64,000 bases of DNA from Escherichia coli (GCF_013315695.1 NZ_CP054353.1); one strand, 5' to 3'; counted from the first letter of the stretch, positions 10,768 through 61,762 are shown. The notes: generated from the letters alone by a model not told the origin. Numbers and translations: made by a program.

Positions 10768-10934
10768 GAGGTTGCCCTGTATTCAGTGTCGCTGATTTGT
10801 ATTGTCTGAAGTTGTTTTTACGTTAAGTTGATGCAGATCAATTAATACGATACCTGCGTCATAATTGATTATTTGACGTGGTTTGATGGCGTAGATGCAC
10901 GTTGTGACATGTAGATGATAATTATTATCATTTT

Positions 10935-11140
10935 TCGGGTCCTTTCCGGCGATCCGACAGGTTACGGGGCGGCGACCTCGCGGGTTTTCGCTATTTATGA
11001 AAATTTTCCGGTTTAAGGCGTTTCCGTTCTTCTTCGTCGTAACTTAATGTTTTTATTTAAAATACCCCCTGAAAAGAAAGGAAACGACAGGTGCTGAAAG
11101 CGAGCTTTTTGGCCTCTGTCGTTTCCTTTCTCTGTTTTTG
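10935..11140 (+). other. cos site (cosQ-cosN-cosB); 12-nt cohesive-end sequence GGGCGGCGACCT at 10967-10978
   Basis: ...CCGACAGGTTACG|GGGCGGCGACCTCGCGGGTTTTCGCTATTTATGAAAATTTTCCGG... matches my memory of the joined lambda ends apart from a few substitutions and one 1-bp deletion. It lies directly upstream of Nu1. Confidence 0.85.
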
Positions 11141-11155
11141 TCCGTGGAATGAGCA

Positions 11156-11675
11156 ATGGAAGTCAACAAAAAGCAGCTGGCTGACATTTTCGGTGCGAGT
11201 ATCCGTACCATTCAGAACTGGCAGGAACAGGGAATGCCCGTTCTGCGAGGCGGTGGCAAGGGTAATGAGGTGCTTTATGACTCTGCCGCCGTCATAAAAT
11301 GGTATGCCGAAAGGGATGCTGAAATTGAGAACGAAAAGCTGCGCCGGGAGGTTGAAGAACTGCGGCAGGCCAGCGAGGCAGATCTCCAGCCAGGGACTAT
11401 TGAGTACGAACGCCACCGACTTACGCGTGCGCAGGCCGACGCACAGGAACTGAAGAATGCCAGAGACTCCGCTGAAGTGGTGGAAACCGCATTCTGTACT
11501 TTCGTGTTGTCGCGGATCGCAGGTGAAATTGCCAGTATTCTCGACGGGATCCCCCTGTCGGTGCAGCGGCGTTTTCCGGAACTGGAAAACCGACATGTTG
11601 ATTTCCTGAAACGGGATATCATCAAAGCCATGAACAAAGCAGCCGCGCTGGATGAACTGATACCGGGGTTGCTGA

Positions 11676-11701
<26 letters not shown>
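11156..11701 (+). CDS. nu1: terminase small subunit Nu1
   Basis: 181 aa MEVNKKQLADIFGASIRTIQNWQEQGMPV... (winged HTH). Lambda gpNu1 length and sequence. Confidence 0.95.
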
Positions 11702-15382
<3,681 letters not shown>

Positions 15383-18573: not shown

Positions 18574-18927
18574 GTGGCTGATTTCGATAACCTGTTCGAT
18601 GCTGCCATTGCCTGCGCCGATGAAACGATACGCGGGTACATGGGAACGTCAGCCACCATGACATCCGGTGAGCAGTCCGGTGCTGTGATACGTGGTGTTT
18701 TTGATGACCCTGAAAATATCAGCTATGCCGGACAGGGCGTGCGCGTTGAAGGCTCCAGCCCGTCCCTGTTTGTCCGGACTGATGATGTGCGGCAACTGCG
18801 GCGTGGAGACACGCTGACCATCGGTGAGGAAAACTTCTGGATAGATCGTGTTTCGCCGGATGATGGCGGAAGCTGTCATCTCTGGCTTGGGCGGGGCGTA
18901 CCGCCTGCCGTTAACCGTCGCCGCTGA
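18574..18927 (+). CDS. FII: head-tail connector protein FII
   Basis: 117 aa MADFDNLFDAAIACADETIRGYMG... Confidence 0.9.
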   Translation: MADFDNLFDAAIACADETIRGYMGTSATMTSGEQSGAVIRGVFDDPENISYAGQGVRVEGSSPSLFVRTDDVRQLRRGDTLTIGEENFWIDRVSPDDGGSCHLWLGRGVPPAVNRRR

Positions 18928-18938
18928 AAGGGGGATGT

Positions 18939-19517
18939 ATGGCCATAAAAGGTCTTGAGCAGGCCGTTGAAAACCTCAGCCGTATCAGCAAAACGGCGGT
19001 TCCCGGTGCCGCCGCAATGGCCATTAACCGCGTTGCGTCATCCGCGATATCGCAGTCGGCGTCACAGGTTGCCCGTGAGACAAAGGTACGCCGGAAACTG
19101 GTAAAGGAAAGGGCCAGGCTGAAAAGGGCCACGGTCAAAAATCCGCAGGCCAGAATCAAAGTTAACCGGGGGGATTTGCCCGTAATCAAGCTGGGTAATG
19201 CGCGGGTTGTCCTGTCCCGCCGCAGGCGTCGTAAAAAGGGGCAGCGTTCATCCCTGAAAGGTGGCGGCAGCGTGCTTGTGGTGGGTAACCGTCGTATTCC
19301 CGGCGCGTTTATTCAGCAACTGAAAAATGGCCGGTGGCATGTTATGCAGCGTGTGGCCGGGAAAAACCGTTACCCCATTGATGTGGTGAAAATCCCGATG
19401 GCGGTGCCGCTGACCACGGCGTTTAAACAGAATATTGAACGGATACGGCGTGAACGTCTTCCGAAAGAGCTGGGCTATGCGCTGCAGCATCAACTGAGAA
19501 TGGTAATAAAGCGATGA
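18939..19517 (+). CDS. Z: tail completion protein Z
   Basis: 192 aa, the lambda gpZ length and sequence. Confidence 0.9.
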   Translation: MAIKGLEQAVENLSRISKTAVPGAAAMAINRVASSAISQSASQVARETKVRRKLVKERARLKRATVKNPQARIKVNRGDLPVIKLGNARVVLSRRRRRKKGQRSSLKGGGSVLVVGNRRIPGAFIQQLKNGRWHVMQRVAGKNRYPIDVVKIPMAVPLTTAFKQNIERIRRERLPKELGYALQHQLRMVIKR

Positions 19518-35710: not shown

Positions 35711-37192
35711 TTATATTTCTGCTTCAGAATTTCCTGGGCAGTATATATTTTCTATTTTTTGTGGAGTGATCAGGTGATGTACAACTGCTTTATCTACACA
35801 TAAATTAACTCCGGTGAGAGCTAATGTATGCCCATCACCATTTATTGTTAGTAACGGGCTGGAAAATTTCTCTGCCATCTTACGGGCATTAATCCAGGGC
35901 GTTGTTGGGTCGTATTTGTGTGCTACAAACAGTAAACCAGAGGGCAGAACAGTATTTTTCAGGCGAGTTTTGTTCAGGTCGCTATGTATTGGCCATAATT
36001 CACAAAAATCAGGTGAATCGGAACGTCCATTGTCAAAGTTAATAGCCGGGAAGGCATTCGCAAGAGCGTCTTTTCGGGATTTTCGCTCTTCTGGTGTTAA
36101 TTGCTCATCCCCCTGATCTACACAGAGGATTACCCCCGAAGCATCGCTTGACTCTTCTGAGGCTATCTGAGCACTGAGCGCAGTTTCAATTTCATTACTG
36201 ACAATCCCCTGAGAGAACTGGCGTATGGCAGTTGCAAGGGTTGGCCATGATGAACGCCATAGCAGAAGGTCTGTTGTTAATGATATGAGTTCATCTGAAG
36301 ATATATTTTCTCCCTTACTGTCTAATAAAGGTTTGTGATGTAATTTTGATAATAGCTCATGGAACTGAGTTATTGCCTTATCTCTGTCTGAAGAAAGCGG
36401 GCAACTTTTTGTACGCGCACACCAGGATGCAAAGCGATCAAACGTTTCCTGATAACTCTGTGCCTGTTTGAGTTGCCATGTGAAGTTGTCCTCCAGGTCA
36501 TCGATATCGACGACTCCATCAAGAACGATAGATCTTACGTTGTAGGGAAAACGTTCTGCATATAAGGCTGCAATTTGAGTTCCATACGAATACGCCACGG
36601 CTGTCAGTTGTTTATCCCCCAAGGCTTGCCTAATACGATCAATATCGTATACAGCCTCGTTAGAGCCGATATGGCGAATGACTTCGGCTCCGGTATTATG
36701 GATACAGGCATTAATTTTATTTAATACTTGTTGCTTTTCGGTTATGTTTTCCTGAGTCTCTGTATCTGATTGCCGGCAGTTTATTGTCGGAGTGGACTGT
36801 CCGACGCCTCGAGGATCAAATCCAATAATATCCCATGACTCACGAAGATTTGTGACTGGCCAGTCAAAGTTAATATAAGGATTTATGCCTGGTAACCCGG
36901 GACCACCACTTATTATCAGGATACTTCCTTTATGCTTGCTTTTTGCCGGCAATTTTGTCAACGCTAGTTTGACTTGTGATTTTTTTTCATAAGAAGCATC
37001 TCCGCCTGTGTCTGTATATTTTAATGGAACAGACAAATAACCACATAGTAAGTCAGGAGACGGTTTTTCCTCACCAAACCAGTGGTTGAATTGACTGGCC
37101 ATACAGGATTGCCACTGTATCTGCTGGGCAGATACGGTTACTGGTAGAAGTAACGTTAAAACAACTTTGAAATGAGTAATTATTTTTCGCAT
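35711..37192 (-). CDS. secreted alpha/beta-hydrolase serine peptidase (S33 / TAP-like tripeptidyl-aminopeptidase family)
   Basis: 493 aa. Signal peptide MRKIITHFKVVLTLLLPVTVSA|QQ. Nucleophile elbow VAYSYGT. C-terminal Asp (KYDPTTPW) and His (INGDGHT). AT-rich codon usage. Confidence 0.75.
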   Translation of the reverse strand: MRKIITHFKVVLTLLLPVTVSAQQIQWQSCMASQFNHWFGEEKPSPDLLCGYLSVPLKYTDTGGDASYEKKSQVKLALTKLPAKSKHKGSILIISGGPGLPGINPYINFDWPVTNLRESWDIIGFDPRGVGQSTPTINCRQSDTETQENITEKQQVLNKINACIHNTGAEVIRHIGSNEAVYDIDRIRQALGDKQLTAVAYSYGTQIAALYAERFPYNVRSIVLDGVVDIDDLEDNFTWQLKQAQSYQETFDRFASWCARTKSCPLSSDRDKAITQFHELLSKLHHKPLLDSKGENISSDELISLTTDLLLWRSSWPTLATAIRQFSQGIVSNEIETALSAQIASEESSDASGVILCVDQGDEQLTPEERKSRKDALANAFPAINFDNGRSDSPDFCELWPIHSDLNKTRLKNTVLPSGLLFVAHKYDPTTPWINARKMAEKFSSPLLTINGDGHTLALTGVNLCVDKAVVHHLITPQKIENIYCPGNSEAEI

Positions 37193-38844: not shown

Positions 38845-39606
38845 TCACCACATCACTTTTTGTCGCTGTTTGGCGAGATAATTCAACGGTGTCAGGCCGT
38901 AAAACGCCTTAAAAACAGAGATAAAGTACGACGTGCTGCTATAGCCACATAATTGCGCTACCTGAGTGATATTTTTGTTATCCATCAATAACATCTGTAC
39001 GGCGTAACGCATACGACACTCTGTGACAATCTGGCTATAGCTGGTATTTTCGTTTTTTAATTTCTTTTTGAGCAGGCTGGGGCTTAAACATAGCGAACTG
39101 GCGACAATTCGCAGATTCCAGTAATGCTGAATATCGCTTTGAATAATGCGGCAGACGCTGTCGCGGACGCTGCTGCGTAAGATATACATCAGTAGGGCAA
39201 TAAACCGCGATTGCTCAAGAAAGTTAGACAATACGGTAAAAAGCAATGCGCGCGTCAACTCCGCTTCGCAGGGTTTGCTGGGTTGCTGCTTGCTGTGGTT
39301 GGCGGCTAGCCGGAACACTTCCGGTGTACGGCTATGACAAGCGATAACCGGGGTTGCCAGCCGCGACCAGGGCTTTATACAGGTTAAGTTCTTATTTAAA
39401 AACAACAGATAATCGTTGATGATGTTACGGTTGATGTGGGTGATTAATACGTGATTTAACGTTGAGAGTTCAATGACGTTATTGTTGCACGCGAAGGCGG
39501 CCAGGTAGTTTTTCGGAAGGGTAAACGTAGCATGGTTATTGACGCTTACCTCTACCTCTTTTTCGGTCAGGATCACCACGCAAGGTTCACTGCTGCTCAA
39601 TTGCAT
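38845..39606 (-). CDS. envY: AraC-family porin thermoregulator EnvY
   Basis: 253 aa. C-terminal AraC HTH (ITQVAQLCGYSSTSYFISVFKAFYGLTP). Confidence 0.9.
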   Translation of the reverse strand: MQLSSSEPCVVILTEKEVEVSVNNHATFTLPKNYLAAFACNNNVIELSTLNHVLITHINRNIINDYLLFLNKNLTCIKPWSRLATPVIACHSRTPEVFRLAANHSKQQPSKPCEAELTRALLFTVLSNFLEQSRFIALLMYILRSSVRDSVCRIIQSDIQHYWNLRIVASSLCLSPSLLKKKLKNENTSYSQIVTECRMRYAVQMLLMDNKNITQVAQLCGYSSTSYFISVFKAFYGLTPLNYLAKQRQKVMW

Positions 39607-39788
39607 TTCGCACTCCTCAGATATCAGAAACTCCGCTCAAAGGATCTATGCTTCCTGCATGAGTGATCGGCCCGTTCGCCGATAACGATCTTCTTTCTTT
39701 AGCACGCTTTTTAGCAATTAATCTTGATGGAATTCTGACGAGAGCGAAAGAGGTAAGCCAGGTCGTACCCGACTTACCTGGAGGAGAT

Positions 39789-40679
39789 TTAATACTCGAG
39801 AATGCCGTGCGCGACGGGCAAATAGCGCAGAGAGAAATAGAGCGTGTCTTTACCGCAAGAGGAACGTTTCGCTAACAGCGAGGCAATTTCTGCGTCCGGT
39901 TTCGGTTTCGCTGTAAAGGTTTTGCCTTTGCCGGCGACAAACAGTTCATAAACAATGCCGCTTGCTGGGGCGGAGCTTTGGCAATCGGCGCTGGCCTGTA
40001 GATAACGTTCACGCTGTTCAGCGGTCAGTTTATCCACGCCGCTGCCATCCTGTACCCAGACATTAACGCCGGTTGCTTTAACGTGTTCCAGCAGTTGGCG
40101 ATAGCCATCGGGCGACATGTTTCCGGCGAAAAAACTACTGATATAAACCGGTTTTGCTGAAACATCGCTAATCAACCGCTGCGCGTTGTTTAACCATGTT
40201 AGCAAAGGCTGACGGGCGGCTTCGCTGCGCCAGTTCAGGTCGTCAATTTCCGCGCTGATGTACCAGCCATCCGGCGTTACGCCAGGTACGGCGCTCCATA
40301 ATCTGGCTTGCTGGAGATCGGCAGCCAGCAGGCGGTTAAGATAGCTTTCCAGCGCTGCAGACGACTGTTTCTGGTGCATAAAAAATTCCGGATCGGCATT
40401 CAGCCCGACAATCAGCTTCAGGCCAGCCTGTTGCGCAGCTGCGGCACGCTTAAACAATAACGCGCGCTGTTCTGGCTGGGTGAATGCATCGCCGTAACGA
40501 GTCCATTGCAAAACCAGGGTATCGAAGCCTTGCAAACGTAACTGACTCATCAGCCCCTGCCACTGGGTATCGGTAACCTGACTATCACGGTTTTGTGGTT
40601 GCCAGATAATACCTTTCATCGCAAAGGAAAAAGGGCTGACCAAAAGCAGTGTCAGCAATACGAAAATGAACTTACGCAT
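39789..40679 (-). CDS. ybcH: periplasmic protein YbcH (third gene of the nfrB-nfrA-ybcH operon)
   Basis: 296 aa. Signal peptide MRKFIFVLLTLLLVSPFSFA. Its ATG (40677-40679) abuts the nfrA stop (40680-40682). Confidence 0.85.
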   Translation of the reverse strand: MRKFIFVLLTLLLVSPFSFAMKGIIWQPQNRDSQVTDTQWQGLMSQLRLQGFDTLVLQWTRYGDAFTQPEQRALLFKRAAAAQQAGLKLIVGLNADPEFFMHQKQSSAALESYLNRLLAADLQQARLWSAVPGVTPDGWYISAEIDDLNWRSEAARQPLLTWLNNAQRLISDVSAKPVYISSFFAGNMSPDGYRQLLEHVKATGVNVWVQDGSGVDKLTAEQRERYLQASADCQSSAPASGIVYELFVAGKGKTFTAKPKPDAEIASLLAKRSSCGKDTLYFSLRYLPVAHGILEY

Positions 40680-43652
40680 TTACCAGTGCACTCCAATGGT
40701 GAGAAACGCGTTGTTGCGCTCTCCGTTACGTTGATTAATCGCCTTAAAGGTATGTTGATACTCGACGCCGAGACTGACTTTGTGCGGCCAGGCGTCGTAG
40801 TGCGTCTCGCCGGTCCAGATATTCCAGCGGACCCCGACTCCGCCAAGCTGCGCGCCCTGAGTGCCTTTATCACGATAGCCGTTGTCCTGAACGTGAGCGT
40901 AAGGCTCAATAGTCTGTCCGTTAGCCACCTTCTGATGCCAGCTGACGCGATAATCTGCCGTCCACGCCTGAATATCCTGGCGGACATATTGCGCCGCATC
41001 GAGGTACAGGTTTTGGGCAAACCAGCCTGAACCGTTCGGGTGCCATTCGTCGCTGTATTTGCCGCCATTAAAGAATGAGGCGCTGGCGCGCAGCATGGTA
41101 TCGGATGCGCCATTTTGGCCGTTCAGCGGCAACTGCTGTTCGACGGCGAGGAAAAAGATCTGATCGCGCAGCGGCTTCCAGCGCAGACCGGTGCCGGACA
41201 TCGGATTTTTCACCGGCATCATCACCCCGTTTTCACCGGTATCGGCAAATACACGGCTGTAAACCGAGAGCAGGTCGCCTTCCAGCAGCATATTGCGTCC
41301 GATGCGGTACTCGGCTTCCAGTTGCCCGTAGCTACGATAGCTTTTCCCTGGCGCTGCGCCGCCGACATTATTGTTAGCGGTACTCATTGCGCCGGAACGC
41401 AAGCCGATAGAAGAATCGAAACTGAACGTCCAGCGGCGACCGACCTCCTCATGCAGACGGCGGAAATTGAAGCGTTGCTGATTTTGCTCTGGGGTCAGTG
41501 GGGTTATCAGCGCCTGATTATCAATGTCATCAATCACCAGCCGGGCGTAGTGCTGCGTCGCAGGCATGTCATCCAGACGCTGGTTCACGTAGGCCAGTTG
41601 TCGGATAAGTGCCGGATCGTCCGGTAGCCCTTTATGCGCCTGTTCGAGCATTTTCCGCGACTGTGCGATATCACCGCTATCCCACAAGGCGTAACCGAGC
41701 GCTGCCTGGGTGTTGCTATTATTCGGTTCCAGTTCCAGCGCGGCGCGCAAATCACTCACCGCCGCCGGGACATTATGACGTTGGCGATAAATTGTCGCCC
41801 GCGCAACGTAAGCGTTGGCAGAAGGCGCAATATTGATTGAGCGCGTGAGATCGTTCAGTGCGAGTTCCGGCTGACCAGGAATGTAACGTTGCGCATGCAG
41901 CCACCTGTAGAGGGCATTGTTTCCCAGCCCACGTTGTTCTGCCTGCTGAAGCCAGCGATCGCGAGCCGCACCATTTCCTGCCGCCTGGGCGGTATTGGCA
42001 GCAGCAAGCAGATCCTCATTGCTCATGTCGTGAAGACTGATTTTCTGCCAGGCCGCCAGTGCGGTGGCGTAGTCCTCAACCTGATACGCCTGATAGGCTA
42101 CCGCACGATGTTGCCAGGCGTTCGGTTGTCGTTGTTCGGCCTGAAGCCATGCATACAACGCCACACCGGGTAGCGTGTCCCGATAACACTTTGCCAGACG
42201 GTTCCAGGCGGCGGCATCGTAGGAAGGCGACATATCGCCCAGCAAGCGAACTATTGCCGGGCAATTATCTGCAATACCCGGCAACTGACTTTGCCACTGA
42301 CGTTGCTCCGCCAGCGGTAAGGGTTTCGATAAAATCGCCACCTTCGCCGGCGTTGCCAGGTAAGGATGACTTTCCAGCAGAGACGCCAGTTGCGCCATTA
42401 ACGTCTGGCTGACACGCGCATCGCCCTGGAAAGGATAGCGTTGCAGCAATAAATCGGCAGCTTCGCGTGACTGCTCGTTCTGCATCAGTTGCCAGGTCAG
42501 TTGATCCAGGCGGGTAAGATTTGCCGGTTCTTGCTGATACAGCAATCGTGCCAGACGCAGAGCTTCAGCCTTGTTATGGGTCGCTACGCTAACGGTATAA
42601 CGCTCCTCAAGCATTTCATTGGCGGGGAGGGTGGCGAGCAGTTTTTGCGCTGCGTCGTACTGACCTTCTTTTAACAGCACCGGTAGCGTCGCGCCAACAA
42701 CATACTGGCGGTTATCGGCAAACTGTACCGTATAATTCGCCAACGCCTGAACGGGGTTGACGCTGTATTTAGATAACAGATAGAGCCAACTTTTCTCTTG
42801 TGCGTCCGTGGTAAACAGCGGCTTATTTTCAATGAGATAACGCTGGAGGCGTGCTTTTTCGCCACGATAAGCCAGCGCGGTCGCGTAAGTAATATATGAC
42901 TGCGGATCGGTGAAGATCCCCTGTGATTGCAGCGCCAGGATCCGATCGTCCAGCTGCCCGGCAAGAAGCACATCAAACCACTGGCGGCGTTCTGCCGCGC
43001 TTAATGTGTTCTGCTGGCGTGCTTCATTGTATAGCGTATCTGCCTGGGACCATTGTTTCAGGTAGATTGCGCGTTGCAGCAGATCGGTTCGCAGCGTTTT
43101 TCCTTCCGGCGATGCAGCAAACGTCGCATCGTTTAGTTGCGCTCTGGCGACAGGTAATTGTGCCAGCCGCAGGGCATTCTGCCCGACTTCACTGCGACAA
43201 CGCAGGGTCGGCGCAGCATCGCACGCTTTTTGCTGGGCAAGCAGTTCTTCAACAGTCGTAACGCTTTTCACTTCAACTGGAATAGCCGCCAGACTGCGCT
43301 CAAGCCGGTCATCTCCTGGGTGACGTTTCAGTTGATCCTCAAGCAACAGCCGCGCCCGGTCATCATGACCAAAATGGCGATAGGCTTCCGCAAGGTATAA
43401 AGTTAGTGGAATATTATCCGGCACCTGTTGGTGTATATATTCAAATTCGCGGATGGCGGTTGCTTCGTCGTTATTTTTCTGTGCCTTCAGCGCCTTGTCG
43501 AGACGGGGATAAATAACGAAATGGCGATAATCGCTCAGCCCCAGCTCTTCTGCGCTGGTGCCGATATTGTCTGCGAGTGCGCTGGTACTCAATAAAGACG
43601 TCAGCAGTAAACCAGACCATCCGATGACGCGATTAAGGTTATTCTCCTTCAT
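40680..43652 (-). CDS. nfrA: outer-membrane TPR + beta-barrel protein NfrA (PgaA/BcsC-like exopolysaccharide porin; phage N4 receptor component)
   Basis: Track ORF 40680-43673. Start set at MKENNLNRVIGWSGLLLTSLLSTSALA (990 aa, the K-12 length). Long TPR-like N-terminal region and a C-terminal barrel ending AFLTIGVHW. Confidence 0.9.
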   Translation of the reverse strand: MKENNLNRVIGWSGLLLTSLLSTSALADNIGTSAEELGLSDYRHFVIYPRLDKALKAQKNNDEATAIREFEYIHQQVPDNIPLTLYLAEAYRHFGHDDRARLLLEDQLKRHPGDDRLERSLAAIPVEVKSVTTVEELLAQQKACDAAPTLRCRSEVGQNALRLAQLPVARAQLNDATFAASPEGKTLRTDLLQRAIYLKQWSQADTLYNEARQQNTLSAAERRQWFDVLLAGQLDDRILALQSQGIFTDPQSYITYATALAYRGEKARLQRYLIENKPLFTTDAQEKSWLYLLSKYSVNPVQALANYTVQFADNRQYVVGATLPVLLKEGQYDAAQKLLATLPANEMLEERYTVSVATHNKAEALRLARLLYQQEPANLTRLDQLTWQLMQNEQSREAADLLLQRYPFQGDARVSQTLMAQLASLLESHPYLATPAKVAILSKPLPLAEQRQWQSQLPGIADNCPAIVRLLGDMSPSYDAAAWNRLAKCYRDTLPGVALYAWLQAEQRQPNAWQHRAVAYQAYQVEDYATALAAWQKISLHDMSNEDLLAAANTAQAAGNGAARDRWLQQAEQRGLGNNALYRWLHAQRYIPGQPELALNDLTRSINIAPSANAYVARATIYRQRHNVPAAVSDLRAALELEPNNSNTQAALGYALWDSGDIAQSRKMLEQAHKGLPDDPALIRQLAYVNQRLDDMPATQHYARLVIDDIDNQALITPLTPEQNQQRFNFRRLHEEVGRRWTFSFDSSIGLRSGAMSTANNNVGGAAPGKSYRSYGQLEAEYRIGRNMLLEGDLLSVYSRVFADTGENGVMMPVKNPMSGTGLRWKPLRDQIFFLAVEQQLPLNGQNGASDTMLRASASFFNGGKYSDEWHPNGSGWFAQNLYLDAAQYVRQDIQAWTADYRVSWHQKVANGQTIEPYAHVQDNGYRDKGTQGAQLGGVGVRWNIWTGETHYDAWPHKVSLGVEYQHTFKAINQRNGERNNAFLTIGVHW

Positions 43653-45651
43653 TTTCGGACTCCAGTTGCGCAACCTGTTCTGTGTTTAAACCTGCTTTGA
43701 GTAATAGTGATTGCATCGAAACTTGTAATTCGCGTTGAATTGTCAGGACGCGATCCAACGTTTCCTGGCTGATAACGCCTTCGGTGACCAAAAACTTGCC
43801 GAGCGGCAGAGAACTGCGTTCATGGCGCAATAACAACACGTTAATTGCTGAACGATTAATATGACCGAGCGTGGTCAGTATTTCGGCGAACAGGAACTGA
43901 TGCGGCACATATTGCCGCCAGATTTCACCGGCCTGCTGTTCCGTGAGCCACTGATGCTGAACTGCATTGTACAACATTGCCCGCGGATCGTGACCGCGTC
44001 GGCGTGCATACCAGTGGCGTAATCCGGTGACAATTTGTCCCCGCAGAACAATGACGTAACGCACTTTGCGTCCGACTTTACGCGTCAGGGCCGCCAGCGA
44101 AACCGGGTCAATACCATCTTCACTGCCGACAATTAACTCATCATTGTCCAGACGCAGCGGCAGTACCGCATAATGCAGCGCCACGGAGGCCGGCATTTCG
44201 GCAATCAGCGAGGAAGGGATCTGCCAGGCATCGATGGATTCCCACGCCACTCGACGCGGATCGCCGTGTTGAAGTACCTGTTTTAACGCGCGCCAGTTGG
44301 CCATGAAGTTAATCAGGTTACCCCAGAAAAGACGCAGGACAGATAGCAGCCCCTGCGTCAGACCGTAGTAGCCAGTGACAAAAATCACCCGCTGCACGAT
44401 GCGGTTAACCATCAAACCAAAGTTTAGCCACAGCAGGGTCATTAACCATGCGCTGCCGCTGAAAATAGAAAGGAAATGCCAGGCATCGGGCCACAAACTT
44501 TCATACGCCAGTAACAGCAAAAGCTGGATCATCACCAGCATCGCGAGGAAGCTGACAAAGTTACTGATTGCCCCTTTGCGGTCGCGCCAGAGAAAGTAGT
44601 TCAGCGTCAGGCTGGAGGTCCATTTGTGGGTTTTAAAGCCCTGGAAAACAATGCCGATGATCCAGCGAGATTTTTGTCGAACCGCAGTCGAAAAGGTATC
44701 GGGGAAATATTCGCGCACGCAGATCATGTTTGACGTCCGTGCGTGCTGTAAAAATTTACGCTGCTCGCGTTCTTTGGCTTCGTCCACCACCGGAAAACGG
44801 ACAAAAATTTCCGTCATACCTTTTTCTTTCAGGCGGAAGCCAATATCGTAATCTTCAGTCAGACTCTGCACGTCGAAAGCAATACCGTCACCGTCAGCTA
44901 ACAGAGCGGTCACGGCGCGGCGGCTGAAACAGGTGCCGACGCCTGCGCTGGGCACTTGTCCGGCGAGGGCTTCACGCACCGGAACATCCTTGCCATGCAG
45001 TTCTGAAAACTCATCAATGTAAGTCATGCTGGTGAAGTGCGTCCATTCGCGTTCGAACGGATACACTGGGATCTGAATCAGATCTTTACGCTCGACCAGA
45101 TAGTTGAACAGACGCAATTCCATCGGTGAAATCACATCTTCGGCGTCATGCAGAATAAAACCAGCAAAAGCGAAATTGGCGCTACGTTCAAATTGGGTGA
45201 TGGCGTCCAGCACGTTGTTCAGACAGTCGGCTTTGCTGGTGGGGCCAGGACGCGCGCAGACTACCTTATGCACGTTCGGGAAGCGAGCGCACACTTCGTC
45301 AACATCACGCTGAGTATCGGGGTCGTTGGGGTAGGTGCCAACAAAGATATGATAGTTTTCGTAGTCGAGCGTGGTCGCCGCCAGCTCGGCCATATTGCCG
45401 ATGACGCCCGTTTCATTCCACGCCGGAACCATAATCGCTAACGGTTTTTCATCTGGTTTATACAGTTCGCGGTAACTCATTCGCGGGTAGCGGCGATAAA
45501 CACTCAACTTGCGTTTAATGCGGCGTACCCAGTAGACGACATCAATAAAAAAATCGTCCAGCCCGCTGATGAACATGATGACCGCTAACGTTATCGCGAT
45601 TACTTTTAAGCCGTAGAGCCAGGTAGCAAAAACATCAAGAAGCCAGTCCAC
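43639..45651 (-). CDS. nfrB: inner-membrane family-2 glycosyltransferase NfrB with a C-terminal MshEN-like domain; 670 aa here
   Basis: N-terminal TM. GT2 motifs LHDAEDV, LTEDYD and RQKSRW, plus further TM segments. C-terminal LPLGKFLVTEGVISQETLDRVLTIQ motif. The stop overlaps the nfrA start by 14 nt. Confidence 0.9.
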   Translation of the reverse strand: MDWLLDVFATWLYGLKVIAITLAVIMFISGLDDFFIDVVYWVRRIKRKLSVYRRYPRMSYRELYKPDEKPLAIMVPAWNETGVIGNMAELAATTLDYENYHIFVGTYPNDPDTQRDVDEVCARFPNVHKVVCARPGPTSKADCLNNVLDAITQFERSANFAFAGFILHDAEDVISPMELRLFNYLVERKDLIQIPVYPFEREWTHFTSMTYIDEFSELHGKDVPVREALAGQVPSAGVGTCFSRRAVTALLADGDGIAFDVQSLTEDYDIGFRLKEKGMTEIFVRFPVVDEAKEREQRKFLQHARTSNMICVREYFPDTFSTAVRQKSRWIIGIVFQGFKTHKWTSSLTLNYFLWRDRKGAISNFVSFLAMLVMIQLLLLLAYESLWPDAWHFLSIFSGSAWLMTLLWLNFGLMVNRIVQRVIFVTGYYGLTQGLLSVLRLFWGNLINFMANWRALKQVLQHGDPRRVAWESIDAWQIPSSLIAEMPASVALHYAVLPLRLDNDELIVGSEDGIDPVSLAALTRKVGRKVRYVIVLRGQIVTGLRHWYARRRGHDPRAMLYNAVQHQWLTEQQAGEIWRQYVPHQFLFAEILTTLGHINRSAINVLLLRHERSSLPLGKFLVTEGVISQETLDRVLTIQRELQVSMQSLLLKAGLNTEQVAQLESENEGE

Positions 45652-45800
45652 ACAAAAACCTTACATTAACGCTGGTTATGTTTAGGGTGGCGTATATTAA
45701 AGTTTTTTATGAATTGTGACAGCTTTTTATCATTAATAGGTATGACTATTGCGGCACGTTATTTTTACACTGGTTATAAAAGTTGCCGTTTGCTGAAGGA

Positions 45801-47243
45801 TTAAGCGGGTAATGTGATAACAAACCTTGTCCCCCGCGCATCCGACGTTACCGCAACCGTGCCTTTATGTGCGACAACAATCGATTTCACTATCGCCAGG
45901 CCAATGCCGCTACCTTCGCCTTTTCGCTGGCGGGAAGGATCAACGCGGTAGAAACGGTCAAACAATCGCGGTAAGTGTTCGGGCGCAATGGGCGTACCGG
46001 GGTTTTCGACGGAAACTTGCACCTGGTGATCGACCGTCTGGCAGCGCACAACAATTGCCTCTCCGGGTGGCGTATAACGCAGGGCGTTCGAAAGCAGGTT
46101 GCTTAACGCCCGACGCAACATCAGCGGATCGCCCGCAACCTGACACTCGTCACCAACAAACCGCAACTCCACGCCGCGATCTTCCGCTAACGCCTCGAAA
46201 AAATCGAACACTTTGCCGACTTCATCCGCCAGGTTGAGCATTTTCTTTTCGGGGATTAACTGGTTGTTATCGGCCTGGGCGAGAAACAACATATCGCTGA
46301 CCATTTTCGCCATTCGCGTCAGCTCTTCGAGATTAGAGTAGAGCACATCTTCCAGCTCCTTCTGGCTGCGCGACTGGCTGAGGGCGATTTCCGTTTGCGT
46401 TATGAGATTCGTAATTGGTGTACGAATTTCGTGGGCGATATCCGCTGAGAAATTGGACTGGCGGGTAAAGACATCCTCAATACGCTCGATCATATGGTTG
46501 AACGACAGCACCAGTTGTTCGAGTTCAATGGGCACGGTCTGTGGATCGAGGCGAACGTCGAGATCTTTCGAGGTGATATTCTGGATTTGACGGCTGACGC
46601 TGCGGATCGGCGCGTGACCTTTATGTACCGCCAACAGCACGATAAAGACGATCAGGATGCTGATTACCGATGCGGTCATTACAAGTTTATTCATCAAATC
46701 ATTTATGTAATGAAGATGAAAATCGATCGAAAGCGCAATGTAGAGCGTATAAATCGGTTTGCCGTCCACCAGTGGGCCAACCGGCAAGCTAATCATCCGC
46801 CAGTTGCTGTGTTCCATATGTCCGTGACCGTGGCCTGGCATCATCATTGTCGGGCCGGAAAGGAGATACACCTCGCCGCCCCGAGCGTCTTTATCGGGTA
46901 TGGCATCACGTGCAAACTCGCGGATATCGGGCGCGTCGGGGGAGTGATACACCGTTTTACCCAGGCTATCTGCCAGGGAGATCAACACATTGGAATAACC
47001 ACTGACAATATCTTCCAGCGTCATTAAGCGTCGGGCTTGCGTTTCGTCAGGGTGATTAAGTACCCGTTCAAGGGTGGCGCTAATCTCTTTTAAATCATTA
47101 ATATCCTGCTCGGCAAAATGCACTTTTACCGAGTGGATCATGATCCAGGCAAAGGCGAAAAACGCCGCGATGGTGGCCAGGCTAATAAAAAAGGTCAGGC
47201 GGGTTGCCAGCGAAAACGGGCGCTGAAACGGCTTACTGACCAT
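45801..47243 (-). CDS. cusS: copper/silver sensor histidine kinase CusS
   Basis: Track ORF 45801-47255. Start at [16 protein letters not shown] (480 aa). H-box [11 protein letters not shown]. Periplasmic His/Met-rich loop [13 protein letters not shown]. Confidence 0.9.
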
Positions 47244-60004: not shown

Positions 60005-61225
60005 TCAGTACGCCATATTCAGTTTCCCATAGTGGAACATAACTCCCAGTTTAAAGCGTTCCCGGTTTCGGTATCCCCTGGCCTTTATCCTCAGCAGTCT
60101 GATCTTGCTGTTCAGCGCCTCCGCATTTCCATTCGAGACGCGATGACGCATTGCATTCAGTATTCCGTATAACCGTTTTTTAATGGTTTTCGCTGCGTTT
60201 TTCATCATCGGCACATCACATTCAGACGCCAGCGATATCCACTGCAACCAGTCATTCCTGCGTTCTGTGCTCCAGGGGCGATCCCAGATATTTTTTGCCA
60301 GCTCTTTCAGTGTCCAGCACTGGCTTGTCTGTTGCATCTGTTCCCGCAACCACATCAGCTTTTCCTGCCGGGACTCAGTCATCCATTTGTCGCTGTACTG
60401 CCACAGGAAGCGGGTACCTTTGGCCTGACGACGACTTTCAACAGGGAGGTGCGGATGTTCATTCTGGCGGGTTTTATCAACCACTTCGCCCAGTTGCTTC
60501 GCCACATGGAAGCGATCGAAGGCGATTTTCTCGACCGCATTGGGTAAATGGATACGCGCTGCTCTTATATAGCCCGCATTCATGTCCATCGACAGTGTTT
60601 TGATGGCCAACAACTGACTGTCAGTAAGCGAACGGAGATAGCTGGCAAGACTCTCTGTGCCACGATCATCGGTTAATGCCAGTGCCCGCCCGTCGCGATC
60701 AGATACCACGGTTATATACCTATGCCCTTTTTTAAAGGCGACTTCGTCTACATTCATATGACGCACTGATAAAGGCTTTTTAATCCGCGACAGGCCTCGC
60801 TTAACCGCGCGGGTCATGATGCCGTCAACGGCATTCCAGCTAAGTTTAAGTTGTTTTCTGACCGCATCAACGGTGCTGATTTTAAGCCATGAGAGCACGA
60901 ACGATTCGAACAGCAGAGTGTACCGACTGCCGGAACCTGCCCACGGTACAGGCAGAGTCTGGCAGCCATGCTCCGGGCACATAACGCGGGGAACATCGGC
61001 TTCTACTAATGTCATGAACTGGCAGGTATCAAGGTGGCGCCATTTACGATGTCGGTGATCGTGAACAGAACAGGATTTCCTGCAGGTCGGACAGGTTAAC
61101 TGAGTATTTTCAGCAATTCCGACTGTAACAGTAACGGAACCTGCATTTTCATCGAGGGTAAGGGATTTAACCTGCCATGGTGCAGTCAGGTTAAGGATAT
61201 GGGCATAGAGGGATTTTTCGTCCAT
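60005..61225 (-). CDS. ISL3-family DDE transposase
   Basis: 406 aa. N-terminal zinc-finger (CPTCRKSCSVHDHRHRKWRH...CPEHGC) followed by a DDE_Tnp_ISL3-like body. Confidence 0.9.
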   Translation of the reverse strand: MDEKSLYAHILNLTAPWQVKSLTLDENAGSVTVTVGIAENTQLTCPTCRKSCSVHDHRHRKWRHLDTCQFMTLVEADVPRVMCPEHGCQTLPVPWAGSGSRYTLLFESFVLSWLKISTVDAVRKQLKLSWNAVDGIMTRAVKRGLSRIKKPLSVRHMNVDEVAFKKGHRYITVVSDRDGRALALTDDRGTESLASYLRSLTDSQLLAIKTLSMDMNAGYIRAARIHLPNAVEKIAFDRFHVAKQLGEVVDKTRQNEHPHLPVESRRQAKGTRFLWQYSDKWMTESRQEKLMWLREQMQQTSQCWTLKELAKNIWDRPWSTERRNDWLQWISLASECDVPMMKNAAKTIKKRLYGILNAMRHRVSNGNAEALNSKIRLLRIKARGYRNRERFKLGVMFHYGKLNMAY

Positions 61226-61243
61226 ATAATTTCATTCTGAAGC

Positions 61244-61762
61244 TTACTTTAAACTGATATTATTATTTTTTGCCCACTTTCTTAATCTTCCATTAGCGTT
61301 GGCGTAAGGCGAAGATGTGTTAAATGAGATCATTCTCCCCATCGTCCATTTTGTGTACCATGGTCTTCCATACAAAATATCATCGGTACGATCATTAATA
61401 AGGTTCACAATCTCATTTTTTACAGTCTGAAGTTCAGCTACTAACAACTCATAACTTAACTCACTGTAATCTGAGTAAAATTTTTGAGCAAGAAGGCCAA
61501 GCTGATTCCATTTATAGCCAGTTTCCGGAAAATCGACAGGCAGACCTTTAGCATCAGAAGCGATCCACTTTACAACAAGAGCATTCCATCCAAGCAGATA
61601 CGAAACGAGATCACGAACACTCATCTCCGTTCCTTTGGCGTGTCCGTCCATTGATTTATCTGAAGTAATTTCTGGTGGGATTGTGTTGAGGTAACTAATT
61701 AATTTACTAAAATTTTTATCAATAGCTAAAAGCAGTTCAGCTTTTGTTTGCGGCACACTCAT
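61244..61762 (-). CDS. ClbS/DfsB-family (DUF1706) four-helix-bundle protein, IS passenger
   Basis: 172 aa. Conserved blocks shared with my memory of colibactin self-resistance protein ClbS: GHAKGT..SV..LVSYL.GW, FPE.G.KWN.LG.LAQKFY.DY, LYG.PWY.KWT.GRMI.FNT.SPY.NA.GRL.K. It lies 18 nt upstream of the transposase, inside the IRs. Confidence 0.7.
   Translation of the reverse strand: MSVPQTKAELLLAIDKNFSKLISYLNTIPPEITSDKSMDGHAKGTEMSVRDLVSYLLGWNALVVKWIASDAKGLPVDFPETGYKWNQLGLLAQKFYSDYSELSYELLVAELQTVKNEIVNLINDRTDDILYGRPWYTKWTMGRMISFNTSSPYANANGRLRKWAKNNNISLK

What the first reader, a model, noticed from the sequence alone, without database searches (positions are those of the whole stretch)
39789..45651. 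nfrB-nfrA-ybcH reads as a self-contained synthase-dependent exopolysaccharide secretion system
**Seen in the sequence.**
- NfrB has a TM anchor and processive GT2 motifs (D-x-D in LHDAEDV, TED in LTEDYD, Q-x-x-R-W as RQKSRW).
- It also has a multi-TM block and a cytoplasmic tail with LPLGKFLVTEGVISQETLDRVLTIQ. This fits the MshEN-type c-di-GMP-binding motif (L-G-x-x-L-(L/V)-x-x-G-x-(I/L)-x4-L-x3-L).
- NfrA is a signal-peptide protein with a long TPR region and a C-terminal barrel ending in Trp, the PgaA/BcsC architecture.
- YbcH is periplasmic.
- The three genes are translationally coupled: a 14-nt overlap, then abutting stop and start.

**Context.** These genes are traditionally annotated only as phage N4 adsorption proteins. 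As I recall, recent K-12 work links them to a c-di-GMP-dependent polymer. The polymer's physiological role and the function of YbcH remain poorly defined.
Basis: partly seen in the sequence, partly recalled or inferred. Interest (0 to 1): 0.6.

Follow-up and report, generated by a model that had tools for sequence, protein, structure and literature searches.

The report
Known Nfr exopolysaccharide operon, sensor deleted
This is the already characterised E. coli nfrB-nfrA-ybcH polysaccharide-secretion operon (the phage N4 receptor pathway), but here a 225-base in-frame deletion has removed the c-di-GMP sensor and an invariant core motif from the synthase NfrB, so the pathway is probably switched off.

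Summary
Reading them as a synthase-dependent exopolysaccharide system is correct, but it was published in 2021 (PMC8669469, PMC8669472) and is now in the K-12 RefSeq annotation.

A 225-bp in-frame deletion between 11-bp direct repeats (junction at window 44240-44250) removes residues 471-545. That segment holds the whole experimentally defined c-di-GMP site (L490, G491, L505, L509, L518, G519, L537). It also holds most of a W-D-K-T-x-H-x-F-P motif that is invariant across the family, including homologues with no MshEN domain.

It is the good half of a second, C-terminal tandem whose other half is degenerate in E. coli (6/11).

The same deletion sits on at least three nfrB haplotypes, and a different 237-bp deletion removes the same module, so this is a recurrent hotspot. 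I found no paper describing it.

Most likely (about 0.7) the allele is a natural null, blind to c-di-GMP, giving no N4 glycan receptor. YbcH models as a clan GH-A-like glycoside hydrolase.

The parts
43639..45651 (-). nfrB deletion allele (GTG start, 670 aa). It is a GT2 exopolysaccharide synthase lacking residues 471-545 of the 745-aa reference.
   Evidence: ORF and translation. NCBIfam NfrB equivalog NF008411 scores 1186.8 bits against a cut-off of 1170, split into two stretches. It differs from SMS-3-5 full-length nfrB by the 225-bp gap and 3 mismatches. The exact protein is in the public collection (330 contigs, 823 index blocks).
44506..45444 (-). GT2 catalytic domain (aa 70-382) with DxD (45133-45156), TED (44845-44865) and QxxRW (44662-44679). 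All are intact.
   Evidence: Pfam PF13632 at 1.8e-40 and PF13641 at 2.7e-35. Motif coordinates. D169, D267 and W330 are the residues whose mutation abolishes function in K-12. The AF2 model of the full-length protein matches BcsA, hyaluronan synthases and chitin synthases.
44240..44250 (-). Deletion junction: the single remaining copy of the 11-bp direct repeat GTGGCGTGGGA. Protein reads ...DPRRVAW|ESIDAW...
   Evidence: Breakpoint mapping against SMS-3-5. The repeat is 13 bp in K-12 and 11 bp in this background, with copies 225 bp apart and in frame. A 41-nt junction probe hits only 4 of 5426 genomes.
43993..44241 (-). Residual MshEN alpha/beta subdomain (window aa 471-553, reference 546-628). 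It is now joined almost directly to the last membrane-associated helix.
   Evidence: Pfam PF05157 matches 470-553 here and 542-628 in the full-length protein, which is downstream of the binding motifs in both cases. MshE 5htl residues 8-145 align to reference 488-623.
43735..43893 (-). Second, C-terminal MshEN-like tandem ('site 2'). Motif 2a is LFAEILTTLGHINRSAINVLLLRH (degenerate, 6/11), the spacer is ERSSL, and motif 2b is PLGKFLVTEGVISQETLDRVLTIQ (11/11).
   Evidence: Coordinates and motif scoring. NCBIfam NF053729 scores 37.2 bits at aa 590-639 against a cut-off of 38. The module is conserved across the family. The AF2 model gives it the same four-helix pattern as site 1.
40680..43652 (-). 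nfrA (990 aa, intact). It has a signal peptide, a TPR region and a C-terminal NfrA_C beta-barrel region (aa 809-977, nt 40722-41228), and ends in Trp.
   Evidence: NCBIfam NF007302 scores 1881 bits over 1-990 against a cut-off of 1223. Pfam gives NfrA_C at 1.4e-67 plus TPR families. The ATG at 43652 overlaps the nfrB stop by 14 nt.
39789..40679 (-). ybcH (296 aa, intact). It is a DUF4434 protein predicted to be a periplasmic (beta/alpha)8 glycoside-hydrolase-like enzyme. The candidate catalytic residues are E143 (within 40239-40262) and E244 (within 39939-39959).

Best explanation
The locus is the known E. coli Nfr system.

**How the system works in K-12 (published).** DgcJ-made c-di-GMP binds the tandem MshEN motifs of the inner-membrane GT2 synthase NfrB. 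NfrB then polymerises a ManNAc-containing glycan (NGR) from WecB-supplied UDP-ManNAc. NfrA, a TPR plus beta-barrel protein, exports it. Phage N4 uses the glycan and then NfrA as receptors.

**What is different here (shown).** Slippage or recombination between two 11-bp direct repeats has deleted 225 bp in frame. The deletion removes most of a flexible linker, the complete four-helix c-di-GMP-binding bundle (site 1), and K472, T473, H475, F477 and P478 of the family-invariant W-D-K-T-x-H-x-F-P motif.

**Consequence (inferred).** NfrB can no longer be activated and is probably catalytically dead. No NGR is made, and the strain should resist N4-type, NGR-dependent phages. nfrA and ybcH remain intact and translationally coupled. 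The deletion is a recurrent mutational hotspot in E. coli.

**YbcH (inferred from fold).** It is most likely the pathway's periplasmic glycoside hydrolase, the counterpart of BcsZ or the PgaB C-terminal domain.
For: **Identity of the system**
- The NCBIfam equivalogs for NfrB, NfrA and YbcH are all above their cut-offs.
- Gene order and the 14-nt overlap match K-12.

**The deletion**
- It was mapped to the base.
- All residues tested for c-di-GMP binding lie inside it. G491L alone abolishes N4 infection.
- The c-di-GMP_motif model drops from 67.6 to 37.2 bits, below its cut-off of 38.

**The core motif**
- WDKTxHxFP is invariant or at least 90% conserved in 117 orthologues, in 24 diverse homologues and in 26 GT-only homologues. 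The GT-only proteins end 0-48 residues after the stretch shown, most within about 20.
- It sits in a low-confidence loop after the last long helix.
- Hyaluronan synthases have an essential, flexible, W/T/basic gating-loop motif in a comparable position (PMC11750622).

**Recurrence**
- The identical gap occurs on SMS-3-5-like, K-12-identical and a third haplotype, which differ from one another by 21-27 SNPs in the 5' part of nfrB. An independent 237-bp deletion removes the same module.
- 45 distinct protein variants carry the junction.

**Decay in some carriers**
- nfrA is frameshifted in the L007 carrier, and 17 further contigs were collapsed with it as having similar neighbourhoods.
- ybcH is frameshifted in L010.
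- Derived variants hit catalytic residues, for example T265P and E266G in TED.
Against: - No phenotype is available, so loss of function is inferred.
- In the window's own lineage nfrA and ybcH are intact in 24 of 24 contigs read. Their SNPs are 5 synonymous to 1 non-synonymous. That would fit continued selection on the operon, although recombination confounds it.
- GT-only homologues show that the synthase core can work without any MshEN domain.
- A conserved second MshEN-like module remains.
- The gating-loop assignment of WDKTxHxFP is by analogy. I could not inspect model coordinates.
- The deletion is in frame only because of where the repeats lie, so being in frame is not evidence about function either way.
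Confidence: 0.7

Rival explanations
1. The deletion produces a deregulated synthase. With the sensor bundle gone, NfrB makes NGR without c-di-GMP or DgcJ, either constitutively or at a low basal level. Recurrence would then reflect selection for uncoupling glycan production from c-di-GMP signalling.
For: - Natural GT-only homologues of about 465-500 aa exist.
- The deletion begins in the flexible linker and ends just after the fourth helix of the bundle, close to domain boundaries.
- nfrA and ybcH are kept intact in 24 of 24 contigs of this lineage, with mostly synonymous change.
- The allele is common: 330, 233 and 104 contigs for the three main variants.
Against: - Point mutants of site 1 (G491L) are loss of function, not gain.
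- The deletion also removes the invariant K472, T473, H475 and P478, which GT-only homologues retain.
- Secondary frameshifts in nfrA or ybcH occur in some carriers.
Confidence: 0.14
2. The allele is still c-di-GMP-regulated through the remaining C-terminal tandem (site 2, which contains the reader's motif). Site 2 binds the ligand and activates the synthase.
For: - Site 2 is conserved family-wide. In diverse homologues it matches the MshEN motif about as well as site 1 (9.0 and 9.6 against 9.5 and 10.0 of 11).
- The AF2 model gives it the same four-helix pattern as site 1.
- NF053729 scores 37.2 against a cut-off of 38.
- The published binding assay used NfrB 414-745, which contains both sites.
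Against: - In E. coli motif 2a is degenerate at 6/11. The key Gly is Ala in E. coli and in 78 of 116 aligned sequences.
- G491L in site 1 abolishes N4 infection even though site 2 is intact, so site 2 alone does not activate.
- The WDKT core motif is lost as well.
Confidence: 0.06
3. One reading: an intact, self-contained, c-di-GMP-activated secretion system whose binding site is the C-terminal LPLGKFLV... motif.
For: All listed motifs are present, and the GT2 and Pfam MshEN profiles both match.
Against: - The protein is 75 aa short, and the mapped binding residues are absent.
- The Pfam hit covers only the alpha/beta subdomain.
- WecB and DgcJ are required and are encoded elsewhere.
Confidence: 0.03
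4. The shortened nfrB is an assembly or sequencing artefact.
For: Short direct repeats can cause assembly collapse in principle.
Against: - The junction is found in 4 independent complete genomes.
- It is also found in hundreds of contigs from NCBI, ENA, JGI and Logan, on several haplotypes.
- An 11-bp repeat is far too short to collapse modern assemblies.
Confidence: 0.01

Closest known systems
E. coli K-12 NfrB-NfrA-YbcH / N4 glycan receptor (NGR) system (Junkermeier and Hengge 2021, PMC8669469; Sellner et al. 2021, PMC8669472)
   Same: It is the orthologous locus. Gene order, the cusS and envY flanks and the 14-nt overlap are the same, and the GT2 motifs, NfrA and YbcH are intact.
   Different: NfrB lacks residues 471-545. 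That removes the experimentally defined c-di-GMP site and the WDKTxHxFP motif. The K-12 work describes only point mutants of the site.
Bacterial cellulose synthase Bcs (BcsA with PilZ, BcsC, BcsZ)
   Same: - Both have a membrane-integrated processive GT2 with DxD, TED and QxxRW. BcsA is the best fold match, with E values of 1e-11 to 1e-9.
- Both are activated by c-di-GMP.
- Both use a TPR plus barrel exporter.
- Both have a periplasmic (beta/alpha)8-type hydrolase candidate.
   Different: - The sensor is a MshEN tandem motif rather than PilZ.
- There is no BcsB-like subunit.
- Global TM-scores are only about 0.33-0.39.
- In this window the sensor is absent.
PgaABCD poly-GlcNAc system
   Same: - Both have a TPR plus beta-barrel outer-membrane exporter.
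   Different: - NfrA matches the PgaA equivalog only through TPRs (21.3 bits against a cut-off of 366.65).
- No deacetylase domain was found in YbcH.
- c-di-GMP acts on PgaC/PgaD, not through MshEN (from my own knowledge).
MshE / PilF GSPII MshEN c-di-GMP receptors (PDB 5htl, 8pdk; PMC5013675)
   Same: The full-length NfrB region 488-623 aligns to MshE 8-145. It superposes with a target-normalised TM-score of 0.70-0.75. It has the 24 + spacer + 24 tandem motif.
   Different: - The window protein keeps only the alpha/beta half of that domain.
- The NfrB family also carries a second, C-terminal tandem. I did not find it described in the papers I read.
Gating loops of hyaluronan, chitin and cellulose synthases (WGTSGRK/R, WGTRG, FxVTxK)
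   Same: An invariant short motif rich in W, T and basic residues lies in a flexible loop after the last interface or transmembrane helix. It is essential in hyaluronan synthase. NfrB's WDKTxHxFP is invariant and lies in a low-pLDDT loop.
   Different: Equivalence is inferred only. The sequence differs, and I could not examine contacts in the model.

Membership tests
NfrB (NCBIfam NF008411, c-di-GMP-activated glycosyltransferase NfrB) | Whole-protein HMM score above the curated cut-off | tested here: met
   The score is 1186.8 bits against a cut-off of 1170, but in two stretches. The full-length allele scores 1332.3 in one stretch. RefSeq names the 670-aa protein only 'glycosyl transferase family protein'.
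NfrB | Processive GT2 active-site signatures DxD, TED and QxxRW (D169, D267, W330) | tested here: met
   All are present at the published residue numbers. Pfam GT2 matches at 1.8e-40.
NfrB | Tandem 53-residue MshEN c-di-GMP-binding site (residues 489-540, including L490, G491, L505, L509, L518, G519, L537) | tested here: not met
   All of these residues lie within the deleted segment 471-545. NF053729 scores 37.2 bits against a cut-off of 38, and that match is at the C-terminal site 2. The full-length allele scores 67.6 at 489-540.
NfrB-like synthase family (with or without MshEN) | Invariant W-D-K-T-x-H-x-F/Y-P motif at the end of the synthase core | tested here: not met
   The motif is conserved in alignments A2, A3 and A4, which include 26 GT-only homologues. 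The window protein reads W-E-S-I-D-A-W-Q-I.
MshEN domain (Pfam PF05157) | Profile match above the gathering score | tested here: met
   The score is 52.4 bits against 23.1. The match covers only the alpha/beta subdomain (reference 542-628), which does not contain the ligand-binding helices.
Nfr system | NfrA outer-membrane TPR plus NfrA_C protein, full length | tested here: met
   NF007302 scores 1881 bits over 1-990. Pfam NfrA_C matches at 1.4e-67.
Nfr system | YbcH (DUF4434) encoded third in the operon, full length | tested here: met
   NF007404 scores 521.6 bits over 1-296. Its ATG abuts the nfrA stop.
Nfr system | c-di-GMP binding by NfrB, NGR production and N4 sensitivity | not testable with these tools
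   These need binding assays, glycan detection and phage plating. Published only for K-12 full-length NfrB.
Synthase-dependent exopolysaccharide secretion systems (Bcs, Pga, Alg, Pel type) | Inner-membrane processive GT2 synthase with its own translocation channel | tested here: met
   The AF2 model of the full-length allele (pLDDT 90.9) has BcsA, hyaluronan synthases and chitin synthases as its best PDB matches.
Synthase-dependent exopolysaccharide secretion systems | Outer-membrane TPR plus beta-barrel exporter of the PgaA, BcsC or AlgK/E kind | tested here: inconclusive
   The TPRs are confirmed. The barrel matches only its own Pfam family. The PgaA equivalog scores 21.3 bits against a cut-off of 366.65, and PDB sequence hits are TPR only. 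Structural similarity to PgaA, BcsC and AlgE is reported in PMC8669472 and was not re-tested here.
Synthase-dependent exopolysaccharide secretion systems | Periplasmic polymer-specific glycoside hydrolase or lyase (BcsZ, PgaB C-terminal domain, PslG, AlgL) | tested here: inconclusive
   WecB (UDP-ManNAc supply) and DgcJ are required in E. coli and are unlinked. Neither a wecB gene nor a GGDEF gene is in the window's annotation.

The most novel reading that the evidence does not exclude
The recurrent 471-545 deletion is not simply a null. It is a selected rewiring that yields a c-di-GMP/DgcJ-independent NfrB, or one governed by site 2. On this reading the conserved C-terminal tandem (site 2) is a second, undescribed c-di-GMP-binding or partner-binding module of the NfrB family. 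The 11-13-bp repeat then acts as a one-way switch that natural E. coli lineages use repeatedly to change surface-glycan and phage-receptor exposure.
Probability: 0.18. Interest if true: 0.65.

Novelty: already known. Interest (0 to 1): 0.33.

Why it matters
As written, it restates published knowledge, so on its own it matters little.

**What is worth keeping.**
1. Profile hits ('GT2 plus MshEN') can certify a regulator that is in fact missing. The allele shows this directly, and annotation pipelines and readers should check protein length against the reference.
2. A recurrent, repeat-mediated in-frame deletion removes the c-di-GMP sensor of a phage-receptor synthase in several E. coli backgrounds. 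It is a plausible natural route to resistance against N4-like phages, which matters for predicting phage host range and for phage therapy.
3. The family-invariant WDKTxHxFP motif and the conserved second MshEN-like tandem are concrete, testable leads to how NfrB is gated.
4. YbcH, so far called an auxiliary or scaffold protein, has the fold and the conserved Glu pair of a clan GH-A glycosidase.

Tried and rejected
- **Promoter and terminator scans.** Sigma-70 and intrinsic-terminator scans of both operon ends (39560-39860 and 45600-45860) found nothing, so operon boundaries rest on published data.
- **PDB sequence searches.** YbcH had no hit up to E = 10. NfrA had TPR-only hits. NfrB itself has no solved structure.
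- **Literature searches.** Searches for the deletion ('nfrB' with in-frame deletion, clinical isolates, or 225 bp) found nothing relevant.
- **Test for relaxed constraint.** About 14 of 29 derived substitutions in deletion-allele variants fall at conserved columns, which make up roughly 40% of columns (my own tally). There is no matched control from full-length alleles, so this is only suggestive.
- **Synonymous versus non-synonymous change.** The count in nfrA and ybcH within the window's lineage is 5 to 1. It is not decisive, because recombination is evident nearby (96 differences in the envY region).
- **Structure.** I could not read model coordinates, so the contacts of site 1, site 2 and the WDKT loop with the GT domain are unknown.
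- **Artefact hypothesis.** Rejected.
- **'The full-length form is an insertion'.** Rejected, because all homologues in other genera carry the segment.
Full report
**1. What is at the coordinates**

- nfrB and nfrA overlap by 14 nt. The nfrA TAA abuts the ybcH ATG.
- NfrB matches two Pfam GT2 families (1.8e-40 and 2.7e-35). NfrA matches NfrA_C (1.4e-67) and several TPR families. YbcH matches DUF4434 (3.8e-69).
- The NCBIfam equivalogs for all three proteins are above their cut-offs.

The window is 99.96% identical and collinear with E. coli MSB1_4I. The operon lies between cusS and envY-ompT, next to a lambdoid prophage.

**2.

Junkermeier and Hengge (PMC8669469) and Sellner et al. (PMC8669472) established the following for K-12:
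- NfrB is a c-di-GMP-binding GT2 synthase.
- NfrA is a TPR plus barrel exporter.
- YbcH is a non-essential periplasmic auxiliary protein.
- The genes form an operon with a 14-nt overlap.
- The product, a ManNAc-containing glycan called NGR, is the initial receptor of phage N4.
- Activity needs WecB and, specifically, DgcJ.

K-12 RefSeq now names the three products accordingly. On this level the finding is correct but not new. 'Self-contained' is wrong for E. coli, because wecB and dgcJ are unlinked and absent from the window.

**3.

NfrB here is 670 aa, while the reference is 745 aa. Megablast against 5426 complete E. coli genomes found only 4 that match as one 2013-bp piece. All other listed matches span at least 2238 bp in two or more pieces.

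Alignment to SMS-3-5 maps a 225-bp in-frame deletion between two copies of GTGGCGTGGGA, with the junction at window 44240-44250. Only three other mismatches separate the two alleles. A 41-nt junction probe again hits only those 4 genomes.

The deleted residues are 471-545: DKTTHDFPSVTGDTRSLRPLGQILLENQVITEEQLDTALRNRVEGLRLGGSMLMQGLISAEQLAQALAEQNGVAW.

Residue numbering agrees with the papers (D169, D267, W330). Every residue they mutated to probe c-di-GMP binding lies in the deleted segment: L490, G491, L505, L509, L518, G519 and L537. G491L abolishes N4 infection.

**4. Why profile searches mislead here**

Pfam MshEN (PF05157) still matches the window protein at 5.4e-14. In both alleles it aligns to the alpha/beta subdomain (reference 542-628), which is downstream of the ligand-binding helices. 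MshE 5htl residues 8-145 align to NfrB 488-623.

NCBIfam's dedicated 53-residue c-di-GMP_motif model scores 67.6 bits at 489-540 in the full-length protein. In the window protein it scores only 37.2 bits (cut-off 38), at a different place, aa 590-639.

**5.

MshEN binds one c-di-GMP with two 24-residue motifs joined by a 5-residue spacer. Each motif holds half the ligand (PMC5013675).

Its upstream partner (662-685) scores 6/11 in E. coli, with Ala in place of the key Gly.

Across 24 diverse homologues this C-terminal tandem ('site 2') matches the motif about as well as site 1: 9.0 and 9.6 against 9.5 and 10.0. In the AF2 model of full-length NfrB (pLDDT 90.9, pTM 0.88) it forms the same four-helix pattern as site 1.

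So site 2 is a real, conserved feature, and I did not find it described in the papers I read. In E. coli it is half-degenerate. The G491L phenotype shows that site 2 alone does not activate NfrB.

**6. More than the sensor is lost**

W470-D-K472-T473-x-H475-x-F/Y-P478 is invariant or nearly so in 117 orthologues and 24 diverse homologues. It is also conserved in 26 GT-only homologues, which end 0-48 residues after the aligned stretch, most within about 20. It therefore belongs to the synthase core, not to the MshEN module.

The motif lies in a low-confidence loop after the last long helix. Hyaluronan, chitin and cellulose synthases have an essential flexible gating loop with a W/T/basic motif near the active site. 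I infer, but could not test, that WDKTxHxFP is the equivalent.

The deletion keeps only W470. This shifts the balance towards outright loss of function rather than mere loss of regulation.

**7. Recurrence**

The exact 670-aa protein is in the public collection (330 contigs, 823 index blocks). Forty-five distinct proteins carry the same junction.

DNA alignment of the operon shows the identical 225-bp gap on three haplotypes:
- The window's SMS-3-5-like haplotype.
- A haplotype with 0 SNPs from K-12 MG1655.
- A third haplotype, from O146:H21.

These differ from one another by 21-27 SNPs in the 5' part of nfrB. A separate 237-bp deletion (QHG|VAW) removes the same module on a fourth background.

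The repeat is 13 bp in K-12 and 11 bp here. In K-12 it is the longest direct repeat in the gene, and in both backgrounds it is the most closely spaced of those 10 bp or longer. This is a mutational hotspot.

Other natural NfrB variants include in-frame deletions in the GT and transmembrane regions, an IS3 insertion and Rhs/PAAR fusions. In addition, 334 of 5426 genomes give no nfrB match. nfrB is evidently often altered or lost.

**8. Is the allele dead?**

For:
- The point-mutant phenotypes of site 1.
- Loss of the core motif.
- An nfrA frameshift in the K-12-type carrier L007, with 17 further contigs collapsed with it as having similar neighbourhoods, and a ybcH frameshift in L010.
- Derived variants with substitutions in TED and other invariant residues.

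Against:
- In the window's lineage nfrA and ybcH are intact in 24 of 24 contigs read, with 5 synonymous and 1 non-synonymous change. Recombination nearby weakens this point.
- GT-only homologues show that the core can work without MshEN.

My estimates are 0.70 for a c-di-GMP-blind null, 0.14 for a deregulated active enzyme and 0.06 for regulation through site 2.

**9. YbcH**

An AF2 model built from 66 homologues (pLDDT 93.5, pTM 0.90) is a (beta/alpha)8 barrel.

Invariant E143 and E244 lie at the ends of strands 4 and 7, the clan GH-A catalytic geometry. YbcH is therefore most likely the pathway's periplasmic glycosidase rather than a mere scaffold. Activity is untested.

**10. Verdict**

The finding as written is a correct re-derivation of a known system, so novelty is 'already known'. 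Its key regulatory claim is attached to the wrong motif, and the true sensor is deleted in this window. The recurrent deletion, the WDKTxHxFP motif, site 2 and the glycosidase-like YbcH are modest but testable additions.

Noticed in passing
Not in the window; proteins P0010-P0067 (e.g. P0031, 1268 aa, 527 contigs); locus L008:1-3730: In other E. coli lineages the first ~54 residues of NfrB are replaced by a PAAR/DUF6531 (Rhs-type) N-terminal fusion. In L008 an Rhs gene and an IS transposase lie upstream of nfrB, where the other loci have cusS and cusR. This looks like an Rhs element inserted at the 5' end of nfrB.
   Followed up: partly
Proteins P0068, P0069, P0070, P0115, P0118 (not in the window): Other natural in-frame NfrB deletions of 55-83 aa remove the TED motif, the QxxRW motif or transmembrane helices. 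Each is seen in 1-7 contigs. Separately, H7 (strain HS4) has an IS3 inside nfrB, and 334 of 5426 complete genomes give no nfrB match. nfrB seems to be frequently inactivated in nature.
   Followed up: partly
L007 (alignment column 4302, nfrA) and L010 (column 5755, ybcH): Some carriers of the 225-bp deletion also have 1-bp frameshifts in nfrA or ybcH. The nfrA frameshift is on the K-12-identical haplotype (L007), and 17 further contigs were collapsed with it as having similar neighbourhoods. The order of these events relative to the deletion is unknown.
   Followed up: partly
window 43735-43893 (NfrB aa 587-639); reference residues 662-714: A second MshEN-like tandem with a four-helix pattern is conserved at the C-terminus of NfrB-family proteins. 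I did not find it described in the NfrB papers I read. In E. coli and close relatives its first motif has lost the key Gly.
   Followed up: yes
Reference NfrB residues 470-478; in the window only W470 remains, at the deletion junction (44240-44250): A W-D-K-T-x-H-x-F/Y-P motif is invariant across the NfrB family, including short GT-only homologues that end just after it. It is a candidate gating-loop equivalent, and its function is unknown.
   Followed up: partly
window ~1-35500: A lambdoid prophage is integrated next to a tRNA-Arg gene. It has an integrase and tail, head, terminase and lysis genes. It also carries an OmpC-like porin gene, an Ail/Lom-family gene and an IS1A copy. Compared with MSB1_4I there is a 44-bp length difference near window 18920-18972.
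   Followed up: no
window 60005-61762: An ISL3-family ISEc53 transposase gene (60005-61225) lies beside a ClbS/DfsB-family four-helix-bundle gene (61244-61762), between ybdK and hokE/entD. Coordinates are inferred from the collinear MSB1_4I annotation.
   Followed up: no
window 35711-37192: An alpha/beta-hydrolase gene lies between ompT and the prophage remnant. The K-12 stretch examined shows only the DLP12 cryptic prophage beyond ompT. The annotation is taken from MSB1_4I.
   Followed up: no
L014 and L016, envY region (locus 10863-12013): Two carriers of the window's exact nfrB allele differ from the window by 96 bases in the envY region but by 5 or fewer per gene elsewhere. This indicates a recombination boundary just downstream of ybcH.
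   Followed up: no
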